DNA of 63,535 bases, filler included. It is 15 parts of 15 records of this genome, joined end to end, with 100 filler letters (N's around TTAATTAATTAA, not from the genome) between each part and the next. Parts side by side here need not be neighbours in the genome. Positions count along the whole stretch, not along the records: positions 47,712 to 52,732 come from SRR7504441_18189; 14 more parts are not named here. One strand, 5' to 3'. Below are positions 11,605 through 55,800 of this stretch, in pieces. How positions within the stretch are numbered: the first letter of the stretch is position 1; every line of letters starts with the position of its first letter. A program made the position numbers and the translations under genes. A model generated the notes under the pieces. That model did not search any database, was not told the DNA's origin, and was given only the letters and a program-made list of their open reading frames with translations.

Positions 11605-11940
11605 CACGTCATCAGGTTAGCCGTGTCCTCGCGCTCCTCGCTTATGTTCCAATCCCAAACCTCCCGCACCCGCCCGACCCCCCGCTGTCGCGCGAGCTCG
11701 GCCCACCCCGTGTACAGTACTTGAATACGTATCTCTGTACAGTAATCATAATATAATCATAGATTGACGGCTGTTAGCTATGGCTAACATTTGTTAGCTG
11801 TGGCTAACGAGTCTAAGAATCGTCGGTCTGGAGGATCTAGCCGCTACTCGGTCAACCAGCTGGACGCGCATCTTCAGAGGTGAGTTGGCCGCGCGATCCA
11901 GCCGACCGCGGGCCGAGCGCTGCTGTGCCTTGGCAATGAC

Positions 11941-11998
11941 CAGACTAGCAGAACTGCACAGAGCTGCACAGAACTGCAACAGAACTGCAGCAGAACTG
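11941..11998. repeat. Short tandem repeat (CAGAACTGCA-like, ~6 copies) at contig end
   Basis: cagactagca gaactgcaca gagctgcaca gaactgcaac agaactgcag cagaactg. Confidence 0.7.
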
Positions 11999-12324: not shown

Positions 12325-15300
12325 ATGTCTGACCCGGCGGTTTCAGCGGGACAGTCTGTGTGCGCAGTAAAGGTTTACACTCGGGTTCGGCCGCCCAGTG
12401 ACATCGAACGGAGCAACGAGCAGCTCGCTGGGCCGTCTGACTTCGGCGAAAGCATCGAACTCGGTGACAATTTCGTAACTGCACTCAGTGGAACCACCTC
12501 ACCTCGTACGTACACGTTCGACGGGGTGCTACTTCCGGGAGCCAGCCAGCAGGATGTCTATCGGACTATCGCTAATGACTTCATTGAGGACGTGGTCGAC
12601 GGGTACAACGCCACTATCTTCGCCTACGGCCAAACTGGCGCTGGTAACCCTCTGCTGAAATTTGATGTCGTTGTGGCTGAAGGTGCGTGGGTGCAGGTAA
12701 GAGCTTTACGATGTTCGGGCCGCCAGACCTCGAGCGTTTCGACGACCATCGGGTGCGATGCTTGACTGCGCAGTGCGTGAGCAAGGGTGCGCAGGCTGGG
12801 CTGGTGCCTCGGGCGCTATACGACTTATTCAGTAAGCTGAATGTAGTACAGCGCCAAAGATTACTGGTGGAGCACGAGTACAAGGTCAGTGTATCGTACC
12901 TGCAAATCTACCAGGAGGCTGTGCAAGATCTGCTCAAGCCAAAAAATGTCAACCTTCGTGTGCGTGAATCGCCGACAGACGGAGTCTATGTAGAAGGGCT
13001 GATGCAAGCTGTGGTGACCACAATGGAGCAAGCGCTCGAGTGGCTGCGGATGGGCGCCAAGAATCGGAACTTTGCCCAGACAGCGTGCAACGAAACCTCC
13101 TCGCGTAGCCACACCTTATTTATAGTGACCCTGACACAGCTCACCTCTGAGGGTTCCAAGCGACAATCCAAGTTGTGCCTAGCTGATCTAGCAGGCAGTG
13201 AGAAGGTAGTAGCCATAGCCTTGCTGGCTGGTGAGTGCTGCGAACAGGTCGGCAAATCGAAAGTAGAGGGAGAACAGTTTGTGGAGGCGCTCACCATCAA
13301 CCAGTCCCTCTCGGTGCCTCATGCATTTAGATCCGGCGAGCCATTATATGATCCAGGTCCTGGGTCATTGCATCCATGCTCTCACATCACGCAAGAGGGG
13401 AGCTTCTCATGTGCCCTACAGAGAGTCAAAGCTGACATTCATCTTGAAGGATTCGCTGGGAGGCAATTCAAAGACTGCCCTGATCTGTGCAGTCTCACCG
13501 CATCCATCACAATGGACCGAGACTGTATCCACATTGCAGTTCGCAGAGCGTGCCAAGATGATGAAGAATTCGGTCTCAGTGACAACAATCATGAGCCACA
13601 CAGCACTGGTAGCCACTGTGGAAAGACTGGAGGCTGAGCTCACTCGGTGTCACGCCCGGATTGCTGATCTGGAGAAGCAACTGGGGATAGCACCACAACA
13701 TGGGCATGCAAAGACACCACCAGCCCAAGCCCATCAGGCCTCTTTGGACTCGCAGGAGACTGCAGCAGCAGAAGGGGCTGCGCAAGAAGGCGACTTTGAC
13801 GAGGGTGAGCTGGAAAGTGCGCTTGAGATGGTCCATGCGGTCGGAACGCAGAATAAGGTGTGAATGAGCCAAACGAGAACTCACTGGTGATGGGCAGATG
13901 CTAGCAAATGAAGCAAGGGCAGCAGCACAGCTGCAAATGGAGGCAGACAAGCTAGCAGCGGCAGCCATGTCGCAAAACACCCTTCTGAAAGAGAGAATTG
14001 CTGAGTTGGAGAGCCAGGTGCGGATTCATTTTTGCTGTCATAATGTAATGGCTGTGCAGATAAGTGACGAGCAGGCACAAGCAGTAGCAGAGATGGCCAG
14101 AGATCATCACTCACTACAGCTCGCTTCGTCACAGGCGCTGGATGTGGCCAATGAGAAGCTCAAGGCCCAGACTGGGGAGCTAGAGAAGGTCATCGCCAAG
14201 TCACAAAGTGAGGCAGAGCATCAGCAGGCTGCTATCAAGCAGAGTAAGCAGCAGTGTAAGGGACTGGAGGCAAAGCTACTTGAACGTGAGGCTGAGCTGG
14301 CAGAGGCAAGGCAAGAGCTAGGACTAGTGCAGCAGGAGAGAGGACGCCTCTGCGTAGAGAAGGATAAGCTGGTTGAGCAGAAGGTATCACTAAAAGAGCA
14401 GCTCAACCAACAGTTGACACAAGGAAATGCAACCTCACATGAATCTACTGGTAATAACGATTGTGTGAGCCATTGTCGTAGCTGATTTAGTGTGAGCAGA
14501 TGAAAAGGCAATGAATCAGATTGGAGAGCTGCATCGACAGTTGGAGACTCAAAAAGTCCAGTTCAATGAGGATTTGCGACAGGCCAAGAAGGAAATGTCT
14601 AACCACTCGAAGACCAAGCTGGACAAGCTTCAGGTTGACAGTTTGCCATGGTAAAGCATAATGAGTTGGCAGAGCAAGATGGACACCCTGCAAAAGGAGA
14701 AGGACAAGGTGGCTGCTAGCCTGATGGAAGTGCAACAAGGTGCTGAAGGCCTTGAGGCCCAACTACAGGCAGCTGCTTGCACTGTGAGCAGATCTGTGGT
14801 AGCAGCGACATGTACTGAGAGCGTGCACAGGCCATCCAAGAATCGCAGCAAAGTGCAAATTTACTGCAAGAAACACAGTTGGCACTAGCTGATTCTGAGG
14901 CAAGAATGCATGTGATGGAACAGGAACGGTGCTTGTGATATACGTATCCAACTAGTGAGGTTGACACATTTTTGGCAAGGTGCAACACCATGTCAGAGCT
15001 CTCTGATAAGATGGAAGAACTAAATCAGGAGAAGCAAAAGATTCGAGAATTGAATGATGATAATGCAAATCTGCGCAACGAGTTGCTCCGTATGCGAAAG
15101 GTGGCAGGCCGCGACTTGGGGTTTTAACTGGTGCTCAGGTGGTGTCCAATGTGCTTGAAGAAAAGAAGCAGATGGCTGACACGCTGCTCGAGAAGGACGC
15201 TACGTCTGAGCAGATCGAGATGCTACGTCAAGAGACCACGTAACTACATCCACGTAGAACTGGAACATAGCTGAACTTGGTGTGTGGGCTGGAATCAGGC

Positions 15301-15642
15301 GACTCCAGATGAGCTCAGAGAAAGCCCATCAAGATGCATTGCAGGCTCACAAAGCCAAGGTATGTATTTTTTATCAATAGCCGCGCCACATTGTTGATCA
15401 TTGCCCCCCAGGATGAATTGAGTGCTACATTGGAAGCCCTTGAGCAAAACTTCATTCGAAAAATCCAGGTGACATCAAAGTCAAACAATCTGTCAGCATA
15501 TTTCCCTTCTCCCCGCTCCACCGGTCGAGATGGTAAAAACAGTGCGGGGGACCTGACCAAGAGCCTGATGACAGCATCATTAACCTCAACCACTCCTCGC
15601 TCATCTCGACGCTTGAATGCAATATCTAATCAGGATGATTAG
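12325..15642 (+). CDS. Kinesin heavy chain-like motor protein (kinesin-1-like) with long coiled-coil stalk
   Basis: GYNATIFAYGQTGAGKSFTM P-loop (split by an intron), NETSSRSH, LADLAGSE, HVPYRESKLT..LKDSLGGNSKT. Confidence 0.93.
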
Positions 15643-34493: not shown

Positions 34494-35902
34494 TTAGTCG
34501 TCTGTGGGGCACCTCCGCACCACCATGTACATATACCTGCACACCCACTAAACAAACAACAGTCTAAACATGATCAACGCTCACCAACACTCACAGCCTC
34601 GCTCCCCAAACTCAGCCTCGATCACGCCCACCTGAGCTCACCGATCGTTTCCTTATTAGAAAGCGGTGACACCAACGCCGCCTTCACGGCCTGCATCCCA
34701 GCCGGATCCTGCCGTTAGCACTCATTGAGCCATTAGGCAAGCTGGCTAACCAGCCCAACAGACGTCTGCAGTGCGTTGGCATGGATTGACCTGCAACTCA
34801 ACAATAATTCCCTCGGAAGCGGCGACCGTGCCACCAGCAGAGCTCGGCGTGCTCGGCGGCCGAGCACCTGCAGTTAACACGCAACATTTCCTTATAAAGA
34901 AGGTAGCAGTTAACATTGTCACCGCTCGCCGATGATTACCGGCCCGGCGTCCAAATCCACCAGCTCGAGCCCTTGAGGCACGGCAGCCCGCACCTGACCT
35001 AACGCTCATTCCCTATCAGATGTATGTGTAACCTCTTCAGGTAGCCGAAGGTAATATGGCACGCAAGCCCGGCCAACAGCCTCCATACTCACCTGAGCTT
35101 AATACTCAATCTCCTGTGAGCCAGGGCAGACACACTGCCCCAGCTGCAGCTGCCCGTTTCAGCGCCTGCCCGAGCACCTGGCGTTATCAGTCATCGCCTT
35201 ACCAGGACGGCGAGGCCAGCCACCGGCCCCCGACCGCTGGGTGGATTGACCCACTGGTGACCCTGCCTCGCCTACTCAGGGCGCTAATCACCCAAACAGC
35301 GTCACCGGGCCTCCGAGCCCACCCACCATAAGGTAGACCCCCTCGCCGCCAGGCCGCATCTCCTCACGTCGCAGTGTCAAGAATGTTGTTAGATCCGCCG
35401 CCGCCCGGTCGGCCCAGGCCTGCCGCGCCGCAGCGGGCGAGTCCGGCTGGTTTGGATGGAGCAGCGGAAACTCGGTTACCGGCGAGGAGAGCCAGTGCAG
35501 GGCGATCATCGACAGGCTCAGGTGGACCGTCCGCTGTGGAAGCAGCTGCTTGTAAAAGCTCCGGGCTAGTAGCAGCGGGAACCACCGGGCTGGCAGCGCT
35601 GCCTGGTCGACGGTCAGCGCTAGCTGGCTGATATCGGATTCGGGAAGCTCTTCCAGGACCAGCTGCACCGGCCGGGTGTCGCCGATTTCGGCCAGCTTCT
35701 CTTCTAGGGCGGCGACCGCTGAAAGACTGGAGGCACCGCCCGCAACCCCGAGGTCCAGGACAGTGAGCGCCGGGGAGGCTGGGTCGGCAGCAACGGCGCG
35801 GGCCAGAGCAGCGAGCAGGGCCGGCCGGGCGAGCTGGTGCGCGTCCAGCTGAGCGTGCGCCGACTGCTCGTAGAGCGAGCCGAGCATCGTGTTGCCGTCC
35901 AT
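34494..35902 (-). CDS. SABATH-like SAM-dependent carboxyl methyltransferase (multi-exon)
   Basis: Y..SAHAQ, VLDLGVAGGASS, ELPESD, RSFYKQLLPQRTVHL..S..ALHWLS, DLTTFLTLRREEMRPGG, VPYYLR; ends YMVVRR. Confidence 0.75.
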
Positions 35903-35931
35903 TGCTGCTTTTCCGTTGCAGATCTGGGAGA

Positions 35932-36719
35932 ATGGCCCACCGGCGGCTGCTCACTCGGCTCACGGCAGCAGGGTCGCTCGCTGGGTCGCTGTGGAGCGGG
36001 CCGGCACACACGGTGGCGGGCCTGCCGGGGCGAGGCTGAGCGGCGGCCGGCCAGAAGGCGAAGGGGGAGGGGGCGCTGATGCGTGAACAGCGGGCGCTGA
36101 TGCTGTTCGGCGAGATCGACGGGCCGGCCGCCAAGCAGCTCGTGAGCGACCTGCTGGAGCTGGAGCTCAAGGCTCCGGGCAAGCCGATCCAGCTGCTGAT
36201 CAGCTCGCGCGGTGGCAAGGTGTCGGCCGGGCTGGCCATACTGGACGTGATCAACGGCATTGAGAGCCCGGTGCACACAGTCTGTCTGGGGAGCTGCAGC
36301 TCGATGGCGGCTGTGCTCCTGGCTGCTGGGGCCGCGGGTCACCGGACAGCGCTGCCCAACAGGCGAGTGCCGGGCTGGGGCTGGGCGAGAGGCGGGGGGC
36401 AGCGTGGTGATGATCCACCAGCCAAAGTCGAGCAATAAAGGCCAAGTAACCGACTTGGTCCGGCGGGTCGAGCAGTCCCAACGGACAAAGGCCAAGCTCC
36501 GTCGGCTGCTGGCGGAGGCCACCGGTCAGTCGGAGCCGGCGATCGAGCTCGCGTGGGACCGGGACTGCTACATGAGCCCGGAGGAAGCCAAGCAGTTTGG
36601 GATCGTGGATCAGGCGGGTGCGTGTCAGGCGCGTGCTGACAGGGGAGCAGGTGACTGTTAGCCTCGGGGTCGGGCAGGCCAATTCAGCCACACCGGCCAA
36701 ACCGCAATCTACGATTTGA
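35932..36719 (+). CDS. clpP: ATP-dependent Clp protease proteolytic subunit, probably mitochondrial
   Basis: Arg-rich transit peptide; ISSRGG.V.AGLAI.D, CSSMAAVLL (Ser), MIHQP (His), DRDCYMSPEEAKQFGIVD (Asp). Two GC-AG introns (36363-36402, 36614-36650). Confidence 0.9.
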
Positions 36720-44395: not shown

Positions 44396-44495
44396 NNNNN
44401 NNNNNNNNNNNNNNNNNNNNNNNNNNNNNNNNNNNNNNNTTAATTAATTAANNNNNNNNNNNNNNNNNNNNNNNNNNNNNNNNNNNNNNNNNNNN

Positions 44496-45913
44496 GAGCT
44501 CGCTGAAAAGTCGACTTGGTGATCAATAAACGGAGATCGGTCCGTCTCCAGCTCGGAAGGAGTCGCGAGCTCGCCCGTCGAATGCAGAAACAGCGCATTC
44601 CAGCGGCCTGCCTCCGGTGGCCAGCTGCCATCTGAGGTGGACCTCCACTGATCAGGCCCCATGAGAAAGTAGTGCAAGGGCGGCTCCGACTCGGGAAGCA
44701 GGCTGCAGTCGTCCTTGAGCTTGCAATCCATGAACCTCTTCACGTCATGGAACAGCTCGTACTGCGGCACGGTCGATGCGGAGGATGGGGTGGCGCAGGA
44801 CCGGGCGCCGTGGCTCCAAGGCCCAAACGTGAGCTTGCTCTGGCCTGGCGGGAGCGACTGGTGGACCCTAAGCGCAGAACGAATCGAACCCGAGTCGAAA
44901 TAGCCTGCCACCGAGTACACGCTGACCTGGTGCTCCTTGAGCCCAAGATATGTGGCTTCAGTGATCCCGAGGTCTCCCATCGTGACGTTCGCTTCCGAGG
45001 TTTGAACAATAACGTCATCTTTGCACACAATGTTTGGATCACGCAGGGTGGATGCCATATCGAAGTTGTCTCGGTGCTCGGCGATGGCCTGCTCGAGCAG
45101 AGGCTCGTGCCCTTCGATTCCGTAAACCCCGTCCAGCAGCCAGCTGGAGACAAGCTTGAACAGCCAGGGCAGCTCGTTGTCTACATCACTCACAGGCATG
45201 TTCCGTTCGCTTGCCGCGGTGAATTTGCCATACATATCGACAAAGCCGTTGCAGAACACCCCTCCAGGAGCCACCAGGTCCTCATACAGGTCGCCGGGCG
45301 CAAACAGCAACACGGCCGCCTGGACACCTCCTCGTGCGGCCATCAGCGCCCCGGCGATTCCATCATACGAGATCCCGCCAGTCCCAATCCGTCCGTTGCA
45401 AAAGCTCTGTTGGGCCACCCATTGGCGGATCTCCGCGTAGTCTTCCACCTCCCTCTCCACGAGGTCGACGGGCCGGGAGCCGAACGAGGCTCCCGTCCCG
45501 CGCACATCCACAGAGACGAACGCATACCCGGCGGGCACGAATAGCTTGAGGTAGTGCAACGAGCGCATTGGGAAGCTGGCCGAGGGCGAGTCCCCGAATA
45601 GCGGAATATAACGGCTGAACCAGCTCCGCTTCTCGCTCCTGTGGTATCGGGTGAGGTGAAGGAAGGTGGGCAGCGGCGGGTCGTCGGGCGAGTGTCCCGC
45701 CGGCAGGTAAATGTCCACCGCGAGCCGGACGCCATCGCTCATCGTCACGTACTGAGAGCTGCGCTGGGCCGGGGGCGCCGGCGGGGCCGGATGCACCGAG
45801 AAGAAGTTGGCGTCGGTGCAGCGCTCGTCCGGAAGGATCCGCTTGACCCCCAAGGCCACAATCACCGCCACCAAGACCCCGAGCCCGGCGGCTGTGCAGT
45901 AGCCGCGTGCCAT
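44496..45913 (-). CDS. CocE/NonD family hydrolase (peptidase S15), 3' truncated
   Basis: YVTMSDGVRLAVDIYLP, TRY, VDVRGTGASFG, GRIGTGGISYDG, GPWSHG. Confidence 0.9.
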
Positions 45914-46003
45914 CCCAGTGCGTTGGACAACCTGACAGCGGTGGTCTCCGGGACTGTGGGCCACCTCTTCGGGCCGTGCCGACGGTCGCAGCAACGGCAT
46001 TCG

Positions 46004-47611
46004 ATGGTGGGCCGAGCTCTCGTAGTTGGCTTGGCGGGGCTGCTCCAGCTCTCGAGTTGCCTGGACAACGGGCTCGGGCTCACGCCCCCGATGGCCTGGT
46101 CCAGCTGGAACTGCTTCGCCCTCGGGGCCAACGAGTCTGGCGTGCTGGCCAACGCCAGAGCTCTGATCAGCTCCGGCCTGGCCGGCGTGGGTTATCAGTA
46201 CGTCAACATCGACGCTGGGTACCTGGCCGGGCGGGACAGCGCAGGCAAGCTGGTGGTGAATGCCGGGCGGTACCCCTCGGGGATCAACAACCTGTCCGAC
46301 TCGCTGCACGCGATGAAGCTCAAGCTGGGCGTGTACACCGACCTGTCGGGGCACACCTGTGGCAACGGGCCCGGGACGGGCTCCAAGGGGCACTACGAGC
46401 TGGACGCCCAGACCTTCGCCGGCTGGGGGGCCGATTATCTGAAAGTTGACTTCTGTGGGGCCGGCAACGCCAGCCTGGACCCGCGGGACATTAGCCCAGA
46501 CCCGGCGGTGCAGTACGCCGCGTGGTCGCAGCTCCGGGACGCGATCAACAAGACCGGGCGTCCGATCTACTTCTCGATCTGCCCGCATACCAAGGGCGAC
46601 GGCTGGGCGAGCAACAAGCAGTGGCCGCTGTGGTACGCGCCGCCAGCCGCATGGTCAACCGAGCAGCGGCATGCGCTGGCCAACTCGCTGCTCGTGGAGT
46701 ATTCAAACACAGCCGACACCTGGCTGGGCGGGCCGGAGGGCGGCGTGATGTCCAACCTGGACTCGATGCTCCACGCCACCAAGCTCGAGTACTCGGTCCC
46801 TGGATCTTGGAACGACGCTGACATGCTACAAGTCTGTAACTACGGCAAGGGCAAGACCCCGGGCGATGGGATGACCCTCAGCGAGTACCGGGCCCACTAC
46901 AGTGCCTGGGCGATACTGGCCTCCCCGCTGATCCTCGGGGTGGACCTGACCACGCTAGCAGCTGATCACCCGGAGTGCCTGGAGATGCTGCTCAACAAGC
47001 AGATAGTGGCTGTGAATCAAGATCCGCTGGGCGCCCCGGGCCGACTGGTGTGGCAGACTCCGCCGATGAGCCCGAGCTTGACCTCTGTGGAGATCACGGC
47101 TCAGGTCTTAGCACGGCCACTCTCGAACGATCGGTTGGCGGTGTTGCTGCTCAATAGAGGCAGCCAGGCGAGCAATCTGACAGTTACGTGGTCCGAGCTT
47201 GGGCTGCCTGCCGGCACCCGGAACGTGTATGACGTGATTGCACAGAAGGCTGCAGGCGTTGCATCTGGCAGCTTCACAGCGCTGGTTGATTCGCACGATG
47301 TAAGCTTCATTATTTTGAGTGGGTTGTGCCAAGCGCCCACGCCACTGGCAAAGGAGGCGCCGAATGTGATGCTGATCGGCGACAGCATTTCGATGGGGCC
47401 GACTGGCTACTCGCTCTTTGTGCAGGATATCCTGCAGACTGCCACAGATGGCGCGCTCGTCGGCTCGCTGCAGCACGGCGGAGGATTCGACTGGGCTGGC
47501 CAGATGGCCTCGTCTACCAACGGAGCATCCAAAGTGGTGGCGTGTATGGGTAACTGCTCCGGGCAGCTGCCAAGCAAGGCTTGGTCCGTGGTGACGTACA
47601 ATGCCGGGCTG
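46004..47611 (+). CDS. Secreted alpha-galactosidase (GH27) with C-terminal SGNH/GDSL esterase domain, 3' truncated
   Basis: LDNGLGLTPPMAWSSWN, YVNID, WGADYLKVDFC, WNDADML, AVNQDPLG; then VMLIGDSIS...YNAGL (SGNH blocks I and III). Confidence 0.9.
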
Positions 47612-47711
47612 NNNNNNNNNNNNNNNNNNNNNNNNNNNNNNNNNNNNNNNNNNNNTTAATTAATTAANNNNNNNNNNNNNNNNNNNNNNNNNNNNNNNNN
47701 NNNNNNNNNNN

Positions 47712-49563
47712 CTTCTGCGATGGGTGGCTCGCCCCATCGCCGCTGCCCTTAACCTGGGGCCAGCTGCTCTCGGGATCGGGTCCGGCTGCCTCCTGAAGAC
47801 GGCTACGGTGACGAGCGCGTGAGAGTTTGCAAGCCGTGCGCGGAAATAACCTCCGGGCTCCGGCAAGGTATCGCTGGGCCGGATCAGCCAGCCGGCAGCC
47901 AGGGGGGGGCAGCCGTGCCGTCCGCCGCCGTCCCGCCCGCGCCACTGGGCCAGGTGCTCCTGCCAAGGCCCACGCTCTGAGGGGTTGTTCACCCAGGATC
48001 GGGAGGCCCTTTTCGGGAACAGCACCGCCGCGGCCAAGAGCCCGAGCAGGTGGGTTGCGGACGGCGGTGGGCGAGCGTGGGCAGCGGGTTTGGGGACTGG
48101 TTGGCGGGCGGGAGCAGCGAGCAACGGGAGGCGGCCAGGCTGGACGACCAAATCGCGAAACTGCAGGTGCTTTCAGCGCTGTCTGGGGATTAGAGACCTA
48201 TTAGGCTCCGCTGGGCCGGGCGAGCCGGGGACAGGGGCATGCGCTGCGCAAGGCGGCTGGCGCGATTGAGAGTAGCGCCGATGCGCTAGAGCTGATAGTG
48301 GAACAATCAAGTGAGATTGCTATATATGTATACAATAGTCGGCTGACGGACTGTTGTGGAATGCAGGTCAGACCAGGCAAGACCTGCGCAACATTGAAAA
48401 CATCCACGCCACGCTCTCCGCCGCCGACGCTCTGATTCAAAAGATGGAGCGCGGTCCGCCTCTTACTATTGACTGTTTAATCAAAGGCCTCTCTCTCACC
48501 AGTGCGTGTATCCAGGCATGTTTAATCTGGGAAAAAAGACACCCAGCTTCGCCCCCCCGCCGCCCAAGGCGTCCGACGTTGATATCGAGATCCAGGTCAC
48601 GGCAGACTTTATTAATAATAGCTGAGTAGCTTTCAGGTTGCCGGGACCTTTCGCTGGATTAAGCGACTGCTTCGACTGACCGACGATTTCTTCTTAAGAT
48701 TGACCAAAAGCGCCGACTCAGTGCTGGACACTGTAAATTACTGCCAGATCGAGCAGCTCAGAATACAAAGGAAACCCGGCCGGTGCCAGAGCTCCCAATC
48801 GGGTCGGCTGATTCGGCTGGCGGTAGGTTCGTAGTCGAGTTCAACAAGCCAGGTTAACACTTCCTTCCCGATTAGGCAATCACCGCTTAACACAGGGATC
48901 AAGCCGTGGGCTTTGTGGAGTGCCCAAGTCGTCTCACTAGTGCAGCAGGCGGCCAGCGCTGCCGGTCGGGTTGCTGATCGAATGACAGTTGGTCGAACGA
49001 GCGGCCCAGCGAGGCTTTAGAATCCCGGTCGAGTTTGAGCCTGGTTACCACGTCTTTCCTAATAAGGCAATAACCTGTTAACAGGCGCCGAGCAGTTCAA
49101 CTGCGAGCCAGTGACCCAGGTTAACACGTCCTTCCTCATAAGGCAATAACCGGTTAACTCAGGCTCTCGCGGAGGCCCGGGCGGGCGAGGCTTACGGGAT
49201 GGTAAGAGGGATGGCTCAGGCCGTCAACGGGCAGGTTACCAATAACTAACAATTATTGCAATATAGTAATCTAGTATAGCAGCCGCACTGCAGTACATGC
49301 AGTAAGATGCACGACAGTGACACGGCACGGGCAGGGAAAGGTCAACTCGGCGGCGTTCCACGAAGCAATGCAGGTGCAGGGCCTCGGGTTGCAACGGCTG
49401 AGCGGACGGATAGGAGTCGCTGCTGCAGCTGGCAGATATCACGATGCTGCAGAACGAGGCACTGGACCGGCACCAGAAGGATTTGGACGAGATGGAGGAG
49501 CAAGTGCCCGTGCTGCAGGACGCGGTCACCAACCAGTCACAGAGGATTCGAGGCATACGATGA
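47712..49563 (+). CDS. FYVE zinc finger + SNAP25-like Qb SNARE + PH-like insert + Qc SNARE protein (5' truncated, many short exons)
   Basis: Manual splice gives FCDGCSRDRVRLPPEDGYGDERVRVCKPC (FYVE end); ALELIVEQSSQTRQDLRNIENIHATLSAADALIQKME; WIKRLLRLTDDFFLRL..VNYCQIEQLRI..FVVEF; ESLLQLADITMLQNEALDRHQKDLDEMEEQVPVLQDAVTNQSQRIRGIR*. Confidence 0.65.
48853..49162 (+). mobile_element. Three homologous introner-like introns (48853-48895, 49044-49084, 49120-49162)
   Basis: gttaacacttccttcccgattaggcaatcaccgcttaacacag / gttaccacgtctttcctaataaggcaataacctgttaacag / gttaacacgtccttcctcataaggcaataaccggttaactcag. Confidence 0.7.
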
Positions 49564-51719: not shown

Positions 51720-52832
51720 TGTCATTCAAGTGCACCTCAAGTGACGTCGTGGCAGTCTCGGAGATTGCCGCATTCTAAACGACCTGTGATTACTTGTGAT
51801 CACGACTCCATCGATTATATAGCGTGAGATATTATCGATGAACGGACAGATCCAGAGTACTACCAGAGTACAATGTGCCATCAGTGATAACCGTTCCGGA
51901 TTATGATAGGCGCACTCACATCAGAGAGAGAATTTTTGTTGCTGTTGACACTGCCAATGCTACGTAGTCTGACATGTCGAACATCGATCGTAGATCGGAC
52001 AAGTCACTCTTAGCATGATCTTACTCGTATATGATTGTATTGATATAATTGTACGCTAGCTCCAACATGGCATCGCCGCCTTGTCATGAGAAAACGAGAC
52101 CCAACTCGATCGGTCATCAGCCAGACCGCCTGCTTCTATCCCGTCCCAAAACAGCCACAGCTCATCACGTCGAGGACGTGTTGCCTCTCCAGCCATGATA
52201 ACCTGCCGCTGCATCCCACCAGCGCTAGCCACGCCCAGCCGGATCCTGTGCGGTGGCGCTGGCTCCGTATCATCCCACCTTTCCGTTAAAGTCAGTTAAC
52301 TCACGCTCAAACTCACCAGAGCATTATCCGAGCATCAGCCGGCGCCACCACCTAGCCCAAGTCAGAGCCAATCATGTAATTATATTCATATAATAATGAC
52401 AACACCTTCTCGTGCCGCCCTGGAATCCATTCGCGGCCCCGCTGCTTGTTACACTCGAATCGCCTGCCTCACGCATAATGCCCGCAGACACGCCACTTAA
52501 GACATGACCTTTCGACCATCTGAACTTCGATGCATCCACTCACACTCTCACACACAGTCCCTTCAAACGAAGCTCGTGCAAACCAGCCCGTCGAGCCGCT
52601 GGCCGACGCTCTGTCGATCACCAGCCGGGCGTTCCCATTGGAGTCGAGCCCGAGCTCGTGCCGGCCCCACCAGCTGCGGCCCGGGTCCCGACACGTCCTG
52701 CACCTTCCTAATAAGGGAATACGCCTTCCTAANNNNNNNNNNNNNNNNNNNNNNNNNNNNNNNNNNNNNNNNNNNNTTAATTAATTAANNNNNNNNNNNN
52801 NNNNNNNNNNNNNNNNNNNNNNNNNNNNNNNN

Positions 52833-55800
52833 GTAGTGCGGTCCAGTGCTCCAATCGGTGGCACGGCGTGCTTGCTGAGGCAACAACCTCACAGCAGCCG
52901 GCAGCCTCGATCTCAGGACAACGCGATAAATCCAGCCAACCTGCTGTTGAAGGCCACTACGGGAATTGTCTGGCTCGACAAGAACACCTCAAGCGCAAGG
53001 CGGGTACCATGGGCCAGGATCAGGTGCAATCGAACCCGAACATGCAGGATGAAGCAACGGCTGAAAGCACAACACTTCAAGGCAGCGCTGGTGGGGCGAT
53101 CCCATTGATGGCCGAGGTGGTGGTGCCAATCCAACCAGGTCATCAGTGGCGAGCTGAAGACCGAGTTCAACTTATCGGTCTGAAGAGGGGGACCATGAAT
53201 GGCTCGAATGGCACTATTCGGCTGTATGAGCAGAATAGCGGTCGGTGGCAAGTCGAACTGGACCAAGTCTTCGCGAGTCAGTGCATCTACGCGGTCAAGC
53301 CACAAAATCTTGTGCCGCTTGTGACTGCTGCCGCAAGCGATGACGAACCACCGCCTTGTGAACCGATAACTATCTCAGAGGATCCTGTAAGCAGCTCAGA
53401 GGACGATGATCAGGATCCCGAGGATACTGACGAGGACAGCGCGGAGTACCCAGTGGAGGGCGTGGAGGTTCAGCTGGCCTGGAATCCAGCTACAGGTGGA
53501 AGGGGCCCCTGGTTGGCACGGCAGAAGCGGCGCTGGCGACAGAAGGTAGCCCAGTCCACGCCAGCAGTGGCGACATGCGCTGTGGCTGCAACAAGTGCGC
53601 CTAAGCCGAGTAAGCCTACCAAGGCTGCCAGTGACTTTTGGCTCTGGCTCTGGCCAAGCCTGGAGCGTCTTGGCTGGCGGATCCAGTACGGCCACAGGCC
53701 AGGCGATAGGTGCGTGCTAGCTAGTCGTCGAATGTGACGGGCTGTAGGTACTACTGCCCGCCAGGAGTGAATCGCATGGATCGCGGAATGAAGTCACGTA
53801 GGGACTATTTCGACTCTTACATGCAGGTAGAATCAACTCCATGATATTGTATTAAGCTCCCTTCAGGTTGCAGACCACTGCCGCTCGAGCCCAGATTCTC
53901 AGCTTCAAGCGCTCATCCGACGAGCAGAAACTGCATCTGCTGGGCATTTCCCAAGCAAGCAGCGAGAAGTCCCTTACGAAGAGGACGCTGATGTCAAGAT
54001 AGCAGTAGGCGCTAAAGAAAAGGGCTGGAAGGTCACTGTCATTGGCTATCGCTGTGGGCATCCCCAGGTCAGTGATGCTGGCAATCCATTGGGCTCATGA
54101 CGGTGTTTGTTGCTGGCAGCGGGAAATACGAGACCCTGAGGGCAATTTATTTCATTCTCTTCAGGAAGCCCAGTATACATTCCTCGGTAAGCCAATAGGC
54201 GTGACCCCCAAGATGGGCGGAGGCAAATACTGGGCACAAACCGGGGACCGGCACTGCAAGGGAGTTAGCCGCTACGACCCATCAGCGTTTGACTCCAGAA
54301 AGCCAGCAGTGAAATCAGCAGGCCGGCCAGCCGCCCTACCTGATCCTAGGGCACCTATTCACGAAGCCCCAGAAGATACCTCGGTGTGTGCCTTCTGCGG
54401 TGAGCCGGAGGATACCACCTGCAAGCTCTTTGCTCGACCAGCGTTTCGAGAGAATGGAAGGGATGGAAACTTATGGGTGCACGACGATTGCATGATACAC
54501 AGTCCTGAGGTCTATGAGGGCGAATTGGTTGACGATTTGTACGTGGAGGCATACAATGTGATCCGATCTGTGAAGCGAAGCCGGATGTTGGCATGCGCCG
54601 TGTGTGGTCAGAAGGGCGCCTCTATAGGGTGCTTTGTTGGCAGTTGTAAGATTTCGGTTCACTATCATTGCGCACTGAAGACCACGTGGGACTTTGGCGA
54701 TTCCCGAGAGTTCTACTGCGAAAAGCATCGTGGCAACAGGGCTGTGGAATGGCTGCAGTGTGACACCTGTCAGAAATGGCGAATTTTGCCACGCAGTGTC
54801 AAAGCAGCAAGTGTCGGAGATACCTGGCAGTGTTCTGATGCATACTGGGATAAGACTCTGACGTGCGAAACTCCAGAAACTCTTGACGCATTTGCATCAC
54901 TAGGAGCACAACCTCCTGCACAAGATGTGCACACAGCCGAACAGTCAGGGTTTCTGTCTCGTGGACATGGCAAGCAGCCCAAAAAGAGAGCAGTGGATGC
55001 TGACGACGACAGCAAGATGTGGGTACAGTGTGATATCTGTCACAAGTGGCGTCAGGTGCGGGGCCCGATCCCTGATAGATGGACCTGCGCGGAAAATGAC
55101 GATGCAGCATTCCAGAGCTGTGCTATCCCACAGATCATGTCAGATGAAGAAATCGACAGACAACTCGGCCTCCAGACCAAGAAGCGGAAGGTCAAGCACA
55201 AGCAGCCAGTGTCAACAATGCCATCTCAGCAATCTTTTGCAGAATCATTTGCGTGCCACCGGCCAGTATTCCTGGACTCGGAAGTACACGAGGCCACAGA
55301 TTCAATGAAGTGCGTCGTCTGCCAGTATGTGCTTACCAGCACCGATAGGCTCATTGAGTATCCATGCAAGTGCCATGTTGCTTTGCATGAAGCTTGCTTC
55401 AATGCTCTGCTTGACAGCGACTCGAAATGGAAGAAAAAGTGCCCGTCTTGTCAGCAAACTGTGCGCCTCCCACTCGAGCTGCGCATTCAAAACAATTATC
55501 ATCCATCCGGTGCACAGTCGCCCCTCGCATCGGTCGCAGCCTCTGCAGCGCTCTCCGCTGACCCAGAAGGAACAACTAACACCAAGCGGAAGCGGATCAG
55601 CAACTCGCCCGAGCTAGCCGACCCTGTGTTGGTGCCTTATGAGGGCGAGATCGACTTGTCGCTGTGGCGCTCATCCACCTTACCGAGCGGCTACAGAGGA
55701 GTTTATCGTGACAAAAGTGTTAAAAAACGGCCTTGGAAGGCCCAGATCGCAACACCCAAGGTAAGAAAAGGCTATGTCTGGCTAGGCATGCACGCCACCA

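What the first reader, a model, noticed from the sequence alone, without database searches (positions are those of the whole stretch)
48853..49162. Introner-like family: near-identical ~42-nt introns with GTTAAC ends and a CCTTCCTAATAAGGCA core
Seen: three of four consecutive introns in one gene are homologous (first versus third 36/43 identical) while the flanking exons are unrelated. They have palindromic GTTAAC-like boxes near both ends and a CCTT..AAGG hairpin core. Related cores occur in introns of an unrelated gene on another contig (34632-34672, 34868-34922) and at a contig break (52690-52732). Established: introners in Micromonas and Aureococcus are tiny non-autonomous transposons that create introns. 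Inference: an active or recent intron-generating element sized to fit this genome's intron length window.
Basis: partly seen in the sequence, partly recalled or inferred. Interest (0 to 1): 0.7.

Follow-up and report, generated by a model that had tools for sequence, protein, structure and literature searches.

The report
Tiny repeated intron family, introner-like
Three 41-43-base introns in one gene of an uncultured marine protist belong to a small family of look-alike introns also found in other genes, a known kind of "copying intron" whose way of spreading could not be settled here.

Summary
At 48853-48895, 49044-49084 and 49120-49162 lie three GT..AG units, 74-86% alike, against 55% mean and 69% maximum for unrelated introns of this window. 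The likeness ends at the intron borders. A relative's open frame is colinear with the flanking exons: it runs straight through the site of the second unit and carries an unrelated 15-residue insert at the site of the third. Both are therefore intervening sequence. Four other contigs of the one public run that holds the locus match only the units (80-89%), inside unrelated, coding-looking flanks. More diverged copies sit in four introns of a methyltransferase gene (34632-35032, minus strand) and at a contig end (52690-52732). Ordinary introns here are 38-59 nt and lack the core.

My best reading is an introner-like intron family that carries its own GT box, branch-like TTAAC box and AG (about 0.6). 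"Active or recent" is not shown: no copies are identical, no target-site duplication was seen, there is no transposase in the window, and no RNA or whole genome was available. The upstream flanks of the three units share short words, because the protein is repetitive there, so local copying contributed. More than a thousand introner families are already described, some as short as this. I file it as a new member of a known kind, of moderate interest.

The parts
48853..48895 (+). c1, a 43-nt family intron (GTTAAC ... CTTAAC-ACAG), phase 1
   Evidence: Sequence. 36/43 identical to c3. A naive coding-potential gene model chose these exact borders without being told. Removing it keeps the frame open. 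No comparative evidence for this unit.
48940..48988 (+). Ordinary intron without the family core. The 5' border is tentative (48928 and 48931 are also possible). The 3' border is fixed by homology.
   Evidence: All three frames of 48896-49043 hold stops. The relative's ORF starts matching at 48989.
48989..49043 (+). Exon upstream of c2
   Evidence: tblastn of relative P0262. Colinear alignment.
49044..49084 (+). c2, a 41-nt family intron (GTTACC ... GTTAAC-AG), phase 1. It has no counterpart in the relative's sequence.
   Evidence: The exons on both sides are contiguous in relatives P0261-P0263. One other contig of run X1 matches 49043-49084 only, with 5 differences.
49085..49119 (+). 35-nt exon between c2 and c3
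   Evidence: Matches the relative's ORF. Third-codon G+C is 10 of 11, read.
49120..49162 (+). c3, a 43-nt family intron (GTTAAC ... GTTAAC-TCAG), phase 0. A GTGACC 9 nt upstream would also keep the frame.
   Evidence: The relative has a 15-residue in-frame insert exactly here, starting with V and ending with Q. Folds as a whole-length hairpin, z -2.3 to -2.6. Chosen exactly by the gene model.
49235..49334 (+). 100-nt intron that starts GTTACC. Not a family member by identity (0.58). Has no counterpart in the relative.
52690..52732 (+). c4, a partial family copy cut by the contig end. The core is followed by the start of a second core.
   Evidence: Sequence. 1 mismatch to the 16-mer. E 0.047 against a model built from c1-c3 only. 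It lies after an open frame that starts at an ATG on the + strand, read.
34994..35032 (-). c8, a 39-nt intron of the methyltransferase gene. Tentative, diverged member (GTTACAC ... GGGAAT ... GTTAGG-TCAG).
   Evidence: Exons on both sides match homologs P0272 and P0279. 0.70 best identity to the core copies against a background maximum of 0.66-0.69.
34868..34922 (-). c5, a 55-nt intron. The 47-nt family unit 34868-34914 (GTTAAC ... GTTAAC-TGCAG) is preceded by 8 nt that hold the 5' splice site actually used (GTGACA).
   Evidence: An in-frame TGA rules out GTTAAC as the donor. The exon frames match homolog P0272. 3 mismatches to the 16-mer.
34709..34750 (-). c7, a 42-nt intron. Tentative, diverged member with changed but still complementary boxes (GTTAGC ... 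GCTAAC).
   Evidence: Flanking exons match homologs. Chosen at every penalty by the gene model. Identity 0.71. 6-bp end stem.
34632..34672 (-). c6, a 41-nt intron with the family core but other end boxes (TCACCG ... CGGTGA)
   Evidence: 3 mismatches to the 16-mer. E 0.17 against the model built from c1-c3 only. Flanking exons match homologs. Chosen at every penalty.

Best explanation
The three units are genuine spliceosomal introns of one small sequence family, about 39-47 nt long. Each copy carries what a very short intron needs: a GT-initial box (GTTAAC, GTTACC or GTTAGC), a branch-like TTAAC or CTAAC box 2-9 nt before the AG, and an A/T-rich core (CCTTCCTNATAAGGCAAT). The two end boxes are complementary, so the whole unit can fold as a hairpin.

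The family has been copied to new sites in transcribed genes, always in the sense orientation. Copying often happened within the same gene, a few dozen bases from an existing copy. Older copies have decayed towards ordinary introns.

Shown: homology of the units, their intron status, their dispersal and their clustering. Inferred: that the copies arose by insertion of the unit (introner-like behaviour).

The copying machinery is not resolved. It could be a minute non-autonomous DNA element moved in trans, or reverse splicing of the excised intron followed by reverse transcription and recombination.
For: Homology
- c1-c3 are 0.74-0.86 identical. 105 pairs of ordinary introns give a mean of 0.55 and a maximum of 0.69.
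- The likeness stops within 4 nt of the borders (family D1). TRF finds no tandem array.

Intron status
- A conceptual splice that removes c1, c2, c3 and three other introns gives 157 codons without a stop. It is colinear with relative P0262.
- c2 has no counterpart in P0261, P0262 or P0263.
- For the methyltransferase gene (Methyltransf_7), exons flanking c8, c5, c7 and c6 match distant homologs.

Dispersal
- In run X1, 4 of the 8 contig pieces laid on 48800-49300 match only the units: 48847-48896, 48850-48891, 49043-49084 and 49130-49164, with 10, 6, 5 and 4 differences. They continue into unrelated sequence.
- For the two pieces whose flanks are shown on both sides, third-codon G+C is 11/11 and 5/7 for one, and 10/10 and 10/10 for the other. 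The frame is continuous across the unit (read).
- The core motif gives 6 hits against 0.19 expected.

Orientation and distinctness
- 8 of 8 window copies lie in the sense of their gene model.
- 0 of 10 kinesin introns and 0 of 5 other ordinary introns carry the core. These are 38-59 nt with varied GT-hexamers.

Structure
- Mean folding z is -1.39 for 8 family sequences and -0.08 for 15 ordinary introns.
- Complementary GTTARC..GYTAAC box pairs occupy 7 intervals against 0.19 expected. c7 keeps the pairing through changes on both sides.
Against: - Only 3 copies are strongly alike, and all sit within 310 nt of one gene. Their upstream flanks share short words, and the encoded protein is repetitive there. 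Part of the pattern is therefore local copying.
- The remote window copies are individually marginal. With a model from c1-c3 alone: c4 E 0.047, c6 0.17, c5 1.7, with a chance-level hit at 0.69 ranked between them. With a covariance model they score E 0.25-0.55, below two other hits.
- c7 and c8 lie at 0.70-0.71 identity, just above the background maximum.
- In c5 the GTTAAC box is not the donor that is used.
- No target-site duplication beyond the usual CAG context. No copy in antisense or outside a gene model.
- No transposase, integrase or reverse-transcriptase domain in 156 ORFs of 130 aa or more.
- The c3 site is occupied in the relative too, so that position is old or was hit twice.
- The extra X1 contigs have 3-4 times the depth of the locus contig (17-20 against 5.3). 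They may belong to a related organism.
- X1 may be the sample the window was assembled from, so it is not independent support.
- It is not known whether the relative's contigs are DNA or RNA. The absence of c2 there proves intron status, not gain.
Confidence: 0.6

Rival explanations
1. Local origin only. The trio arose by duplication of exon-plus-intron units, or by gene conversion between the short protein repeats of this one gene. The likeness to introns elsewhere would be shared splice and branch boxes plus chance.
For: - The upstream flanks of c1 and c2 share an 8-mer plus GCCWG at the same phase. c1 and c3 share another 8-mer.
- The exons before c2 and after c3 share a 16-mer at 81% (family D12).
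- The remote window copies score E 0.05-1.7 with a model built from c1-c3 only.
- Family-like introns are bunched: 3 in about 310 nt and 4 in about 400 nt.
Against: - Four other contigs of X1 carry copies 80-89% alike in unrelated flanks. Chance cannot give 36 of 42 matches in 7 Mb.
- The introns are more alike (74-86%) than the exons beside them. This is the reverse of what old duplicates should show.
- TRF finds no array.
- The methyltransferase has no internal repeats, and its four family-like introns have unrelated flanks.
Confidence: 0.2
2. Selected motif rather than common descent. Very short introns of this organism would benefit from a hairpin that brings the 5' splice site to the branch box, or from a bound factor. 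Some introns would then converge on similar boxes and core.
For: - The end pairing is kept with different sequences: GTTAAC/GTTAAC, GTTAGC/GCTAAC and TCACCG/CGGTGA.
- Some ordinary introns also pair end to end, such as 13206-13247 with z -2.7 and 35237-35291, read.
- The 3' box is a good branch-site-like sequence.
Against: - 84-90% identity over the whole length between c1, c2, c3 and the X1 copies goes beyond shared signals.
- Donor-to-3'-box pairing is not enriched across the window: 34 sites against 38 expected.
- Most ordinary introns do not fold better than shuffles, with mean z -0.08.
Confidence: 0.1
3. Not introns. The units would be coding repeats of a minus-strand gene or an assembly artefact.
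For: Each unit is open in one minus-strand frame and gives similar short peptides.
Against: - The + strand has the coding signal, and a relative's protein is colinear with the + strand exons.
- The locus is present with 2 differences on an independent contig of X1.
Confidence: 0.03

Closest known systems
Introners (intron-generating elements of Micromonas, Aureococcus and many marine protists; catalogues of Gozashti et al. 2022 and 2025)
   Same: A family of look-alike introns in unrelated genes of a marine protist. The likeness is confined to the intron, each copy carries its own splice signals, and all copies are in sense orientation. The published range covers this size: 548 families, 5 to more than 2,000 copies per genome, median length 30-654 nt (passages of PMC9860276). 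One family of mean length 54.5 nt and 42 copies is listed for a marine MAG (supplementary table). The 2025 paper reports 1,093 families in 201 species (abstract of PMC12130899).
   Different: Only about 12 copies are documented here: 8 in the window, three of them tentative, and 4 in X1. There is no target-site duplication, no terminal repeat beyond 6-nt palindromes that double as splice and branch boxes, no autonomous partner, and only modest identity. Copies bunch within genes. In one copy the element's own GT box is not the donor. I could not check whether this family is already in those catalogues.
Fungal introner-like elements (ILEs)
   Same: Multiplied introns with predicted stable secondary structure that degenerate into ordinary introns (abstract of PMC3609843 as listed). 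Here the well-kept copies fold better than shuffles, and the diverged copies grade into background.
   Different: That abstract describes ILEs as longer than regular introns and present in hundreds of copies. These units are the same length as the host's regular introns.
Miniature inverted-repeat transposable elements acting as introners (recalled from the literature on dinoflagellates, not read here)
   Same: Palindromic ends and no coding capacity.
   Different: Far shorter than typical MITEs. No target-site duplication is seen. The end boxes vary together between copies, which a transposase-binding site would not be expected to do.
Intron gain by tandem genomic duplication
   Same: Short shared words upstream of c1, c2 and c3, and a repetitive protein region. 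The mechanism is documented, for example in a potato gene (abstract of PMC4974935 as listed).
   Different: No tandem array. The likeness ends at the intron borders. Copies exist on other contigs.
Euglenid nonconventional or intermediate introns
   Same: Secondary structure that brings the intron ends together (abstract of PMC4770533 as listed).
   Different: The borders here are canonical GT..AG with a branch-like box, so ordinary spliceosomal removal is the simplest reading.

Membership tests
Introner (intron-generating mobile element family) | Several introns with sequence similarity in non-paralogous genes of one genome | tested here: met
   Copies lie in gene A (3), a Methyltransf_7 gene (2 with the core, 2 tentative) and a third gene at a contig end. 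Four other contigs of X1 with unrelated flanks also carry copies. Only about 12 copies are known, because no genome was available.
Introner (intron-generating mobile element family) | Similarity confined to the intron and absent from the flanking exons | tested here: inconclusive
   Ungapped likeness ends within 4 nt of the borders. However, c1/c2 and c1/c3 share 8-mers 8-24 nt upstream, and c3/c5 share about 16 of 23 upstream positions.
Introner (intron-generating mobile element family) | The units are spliced out of the transcript | tested here: inconclusive
   No listed run is on record as RNA. Indirect support: a relative's frame is colinear with the exons without c2, and homolog-supported exons flank c5-c8.
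Introner (intron-generating mobile element family) | Signs of insertion: filled against empty orthologous sites, or polymorphism | tested here: inconclusive
   c2 has no counterpart in 3 of 3 relative ORFs, but whether those contigs are DNA or RNA is unknown. No outgroup tells gain from loss. No intron-less joint appears in the X1 contigs.
Introner (intron-generating mobile element family) | Transposon hallmarks: target-site duplication, terminal inverted repeats, an autonomous partner, copies outside genes | tested here: not met
   CAG lies on both sides in 4 of 7 copies, which the exon consensus gives anyway (read). The end repeats are 6-nt palindromes. No transposase-like domain in 156 ORFs. 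No strict-pattern match in viral or prokaryote collections. The published catalogue also holds families without these hallmarks, so this lowers 'DNA transposon', not 'introner'.
Fungal introner-like elements | Longer than regular introns, with stable predicted structure | tested here: not met
   Length is 39-47 nt against 38-59 nt for 15 regular introns. Structure is moderately more stable than shuffles, with mean z -1.39 against -0.08.
Intron created by tandem duplication | Intron plus adjoining exon sequence repeated head to tail | tested here: not met
   TRF finds 0 arrays in 48600-49400. The exons between the units do not align apart from short words.

The most novel reading that the evidence does not exclude
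The units are self-contained hairpin introns that spread at the RNA level. The excised intron would reverse-splice into its own or a nearby transcript and be fixed by reverse transcription and recombination.

This one mechanism would account for five things seen here: sense-only orientation, no target-site duplication, no copies outside genes, bunching a few dozen bases apart within single genes, and end boxes that vary together while keeping their pairing. It would be a natural case of a long-proposed but essentially undocumented route of intron gain, in an organism with fast intron turnover.
Probability: 0.12. Interest if true: 0.75.

Novelty: new member of a known kind. Interest (0 to 1): 0.38.

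Why it matters
Multiplying introns are the only documented way for genomes to gain introns in bursts, and most described families look like DNA transposons. This family sits at the lower size limit, the same length as its host's ordinary introns. Its two ends are at once the splice box, the branch box and an inverted repeat, and its copies bunch inside genes.

Gene A in a relative carries two inserts that the window lacks and has no counterpart for three of the window's introns. That points to a lineage with ongoing intron turnover. With a whole genome and RNA data, it would be a compact system for asking how the smallest introns are copied, and whether copying runs through DNA or RNA. As it stands it adds one more family to a list of more than a thousand.

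Tried and rejected
- Whole genome: none is held for this window, so no census, no test of intron enrichment and no search for an autonomous element.
- Metagenome scan with the 18-mer consensus core: 7 loci, all from contigs of 28-53% G+C without the end boxes, so chance matches.
- The core pattern with one N in viral contigs gave 2 loci, which I did not examine. A strict pattern that fits all three units gave 0 in prokaryote genomes and 0 in viral contigs.
- Sequencing runs: no listed holder is on record as RNA. X2 and X3 gave nothing when laid.
- Earlier findings of this scan: nothing by place, sequence or words.
- Rfam gave 0 families and ARAGORN 0 tRNAs in the window.
- RNAalifold on a MAFFT alignment of 7 copies predicted no structure, because the alignment put the 5' boxes out of register. 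I did not repair it by hand.
- Covariance model from c1-c3 with the hairpin: no new significant member. The best new hits scored E 0.12-0.55.
- End-to-end pairing as a general property of this genome's introns: 34 sites against 38 expected, and mean end-stem length 5.4 against 5.1. Rejected as a window-wide trend.
- The family designed to hold stop codons in all three frames: 3 of 7 family introns against 4 of 15 ordinary introns, so no clear difference.
- Naive search for introns that bridge ORFs: more than 7,000 candidates in this G+C-rich DNA, so useless.
- The first codon model was trained partly out of frame and was redone. The gene model misplaces the intron at c2, so it counts only as weak support.
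- 49235-49279 as a family member: identity 0.58, which is background.
- Organism identity: the best named protein matches are 44-69% and point to different groups. It stays unassigned.
Full report
**What the window is.** The window is 15 contigs of 3-8 kb joined by N spacers. G+C runs from 0.50 to 0.66. The genes are eukaryotic: kinesin, bromodomain, PHD/CW/AP2 fingers, Sel1 repeats, alpha-galactosidase. No whole genome is held for it. The one public run that holds the locus is labelled a marine metagenome. The best named protein matches are 44-69% identical and point to different groups: a dinoflagellate transcriptome, acanthoecid choanoflagellates, a haptophyte, Picozoa and Goniomonas. I leave the organism unassigned.

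**The observation.** Three GT..AG units lie on the + strand:
- c1, 48853-48895, 43 nt
- c2, 49044-49084, 41 nt
- c3, 49120-49162, 43 nt

By global alignment c1-c3 are 0.74-0.86 identical. For comparison, 105 pairs of ordinary introns from this window give a mean of 0.55 and a maximum of 0.69. The repeat finder returns the three as one family whose ungapped likeness ends 4 nt outside the borders. TRF finds no tandem array.

The 16-mer core with up to 3 mismatches occurs 6 times against 0.19 expected, and 0 of 100 shuffles reach 6. Of 8 GTTAAC sites in the window, 6 lie in the units.

**Are they introns?** A search with the last exon found three ORFs from metagenome contigs of a relative, P0261-P0263. 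They match the + strand exons. I removed six introns in a script: c1, 48940-48988, c2, c3, 49235-49334 and 49374-49413. That leaves 157 codons without a stop, colinear with P0262.

- The exon before c2 (48989-49043) and the 35-nt exon after it (49085-49119) are contiguous in the relative. So c2 is intervening sequence and has no counterpart there.
- At the c3 site the relative has a 15-residue in-frame insert that begins with V and ends with Q. That is what a 45-nt GT..AG intron read through would give. Its residues do not resemble a translated family unit.
- The relative has no counterpart for two more window introns and has a 17-residue insert where the window has none. Intron positions therefore differ between the two.
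- I cannot tell whether the relative's contigs are DNA or RNA. The same pattern in 3 of 3 sequences favours DNA. Intron status is secure either way; gain against loss is not.
- c1 has no comparative support. It rests on frame continuity and on a naive coding-potential model that picked its exact borders, and those of c3. That model misplaced the intron at c2.
The trio is therefore three of five consecutive introns.

**Copies elsewhere in the window.** The minus-strand gene at 34494-35926 is a SAM-dependent carboxyl methyltransferase (PF03492, E 5e-16). The closest relatives found were about 40% identical. Three distant homologs match its C-terminal exons. Together with the gene model they fix six introns in the last 550 nt:

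| Intron | Coordinates | Length | Note |
|---|---|---|---|
| c8 | 35032-34994 | 39 nt | tentative member |
| c5 | 34922-34868 | 55 nt | core present |
| ordinary | 34834-34791 | 44 nt | no core |
| c7 | 34750-34709 | 42 nt | tentative member |
| c6 | 34672-34632 | 41 nt | core present |
| ordinary | 34584-34537 | 48 nt | no core |

- In c5 an in-frame TGA shows that the donor is a GTGACA 8 nt upstream of the GTTAAC box. The element's own GT box is not used there.
- c7 has the boxes GTTAGC and GCTAAC, and c8 is weaker. Both are only 0.70-0.71 identical to the core copies, just above background.
- c4 (52690-52732) follows an open frame on the + strand and is cut by the contig end, with a second core beginning.

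Tests that avoid circularity are sobering:
- A profile from c1-c3 alone ranks c4 (E 0.047) and c6 (0.17) first, but c5 scores only 1.7.
- The reverse profile, from c5 and c6, ranks c3, c4 and c2 first at E 0.17-0.34.
- A covariance model adds nothing significant.

**Copies outside the window.** I laid the contigs of run X1 on 48800-49300 at 80% likeness or better.
- One 1,260-nt contig covers the locus with 2 differences.
- Four other contigs (538, 2,267, 2,452 and 247 nt) match only 48847-48896, 48850-48891, 49043-49084 and 49130-49164, with 10, 6, 5 and 4 differences. They then run on into unrelated sequence.
- For the two whose flanks are printed on both sides, third-codon positions are G or C in 11 of 11 and 5 of 7 codons for one, and 10 of 10 and 10 of 10 for the other. 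The frame is continuous once the unit is removed. These are introns in other coding genes.
- Their 3' tails differ in length between the TTAAC box and the AG (2 to 9 nt over all copies).

Caveats: those contigs have 3-4 times the depth of the locus contig, and X1 may be the window's own sample.

**What ordinary introns look like.** A relative's kinesin (P0141, 75% identical, an uninterrupted 910-residue ORF on a 2,928-nt contig) aligns to contig 3 with gaps exactly where short GT..AG segments lie. With five more from the two host genes I listed 15 ordinary introns:
- Lengths are 38-59 nt.
- The donors vary: GTAACC, GTAGTA, GTGCCT, GTGTGA and others.
- The branch-like motifs are loose, and none has the core.

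So the family is a distinct subset, and it is sized like the host's normal introns.

**Anatomy.** The 5' box and the 3' box are complementary.
- GTTAAC is its own complement. c7 keeps the pairing as GTTAGC/GCTAAC, and c6 uses TCACCG/CGGTGA.
- c2, c3, c5, c6 and c7 fold as whole-length hairpins starting at or near the first base.
- Mean z is -1.39 for 8 family sequences against -0.08 for 15 ordinary introns.
- Complementary GTTARC..GYTAAC pairs within 66 nt occupy 7 intervals against 0.19 expected.
- The apical CCTT/AAGG stem is only 4 bp.
- The 3' box doubles as a good branch-site-like sequence. That consensus is recalled, not tested.
- Pairing of this kind is not enriched across the window.

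**Against a clean transposon story.**
- The upstream flanks of c1 and c2 share an 8-mer plus GCCWG at the same codon phase. c1 and c3 share another 8-mer. c3 and c5 share about 16 of 23 upstream positions. The encoded peptides before the three units are variants of one short motif, so the protein is repetitive there.
- Family-like introns are bunched: 3 in 310 nt and 4 in 400 nt.
- CAG on both sides (4 of 7 copies) is what exon ends give anyway.
- There is no transposase, integrase or reverse-transcriptase domain in 156 ORFs. There is no antisense or intergenic copy, and no identical pair.
- Yet the introns are more alike than the exons beside them. That argues against old exon-plus-intron duplicates and for later copying of the intron itself.

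**Comparison with what is known.** Introner families are well documented.
- 548 families in 175 genomes, with 5 to more than 2,000 copies and median length 30-654 nt. Some have target-site duplications and terminal repeats and some have neither (passages of PMC9860276).
- Short families are listed for marine MAGs, for example one with mean length 54.5 nt and 42 copies (supplementary table).
- The abstract of the 2025 follow-up gives 1,093 families in 201 species, from several transposon classes and unknown mechanisms.

This family fits that kind. I could not check whether it is already listed. It differs from fungal introner-like elements in not being longer than regular introns.

**Verdict.** This is a real, dispersed, introner-like intron family of minimal size, with local copying evident. 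Its mobility mechanism and its age are unresolved. It is a new member of a known kind.

Noticed in passing
window 11773-11808: Two adjacent 16-nt mini-palindromes of the form GTTAGC-N4-GCTAAC lie in an A/T-rich, apparently non-coding stretch. They use the same box pair as intron c7. They might be box-only remnants of the family outside a gene, or they may be unrelated.
   Followed up: partly
window 11940-11998: The contig ends in about 10-nt tandem repeats (CAGAACTGCA-like units).
   Followed up: no
window 12325-15570 (+): This kinesin gene has at least 10 introns of 38-59 nt. A 75%-identical relative (P0141) is an uninterrupted 910-residue ORF on a 2,928-nt contig. That is either an mRNA or an intron-poor relative.
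   Followed up: partly
window 49235-49334 and 49374-49413; relative ORFs P0261-P0263: These two window introns have no counterpart in the relative's colinear frame. The relative in turn has a 17-residue insert inside the window's last exon and diverges after EEQ, probably into another intron. This points to fast intron turnover between the two lineages.
   Followed up: partly
window 35237-35291 (-): This 55-nt intron of the methyltransferase gene has ends that pair (GGTGAC ... GTCACC) but has no family core.
   Followed up: no
window 52857-52897 (+): This is the best new hit of the covariance model (E 0.12), at the start of the contig after the break. Part of it resembles the 3' half of c2. 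It is not significant on its own.
   Followed up: no
window 36040-36658 (+): A ClpP protease gene is split over two overlapping ORFs (profile positions 13-109 and 106-177). A short intron or a frameshift presumably lies between them.
   Followed up: no
whole window: Contigs differ in G+C (0.50-0.66) and in third-codon G+C (0.54-0.85). The bin may mix genome compartments or organisms. Long spurious ORFs overlap real genes on the opposite strand, for example 44444-46654 (-) against 45602-47659 (+).
   Followed up: no
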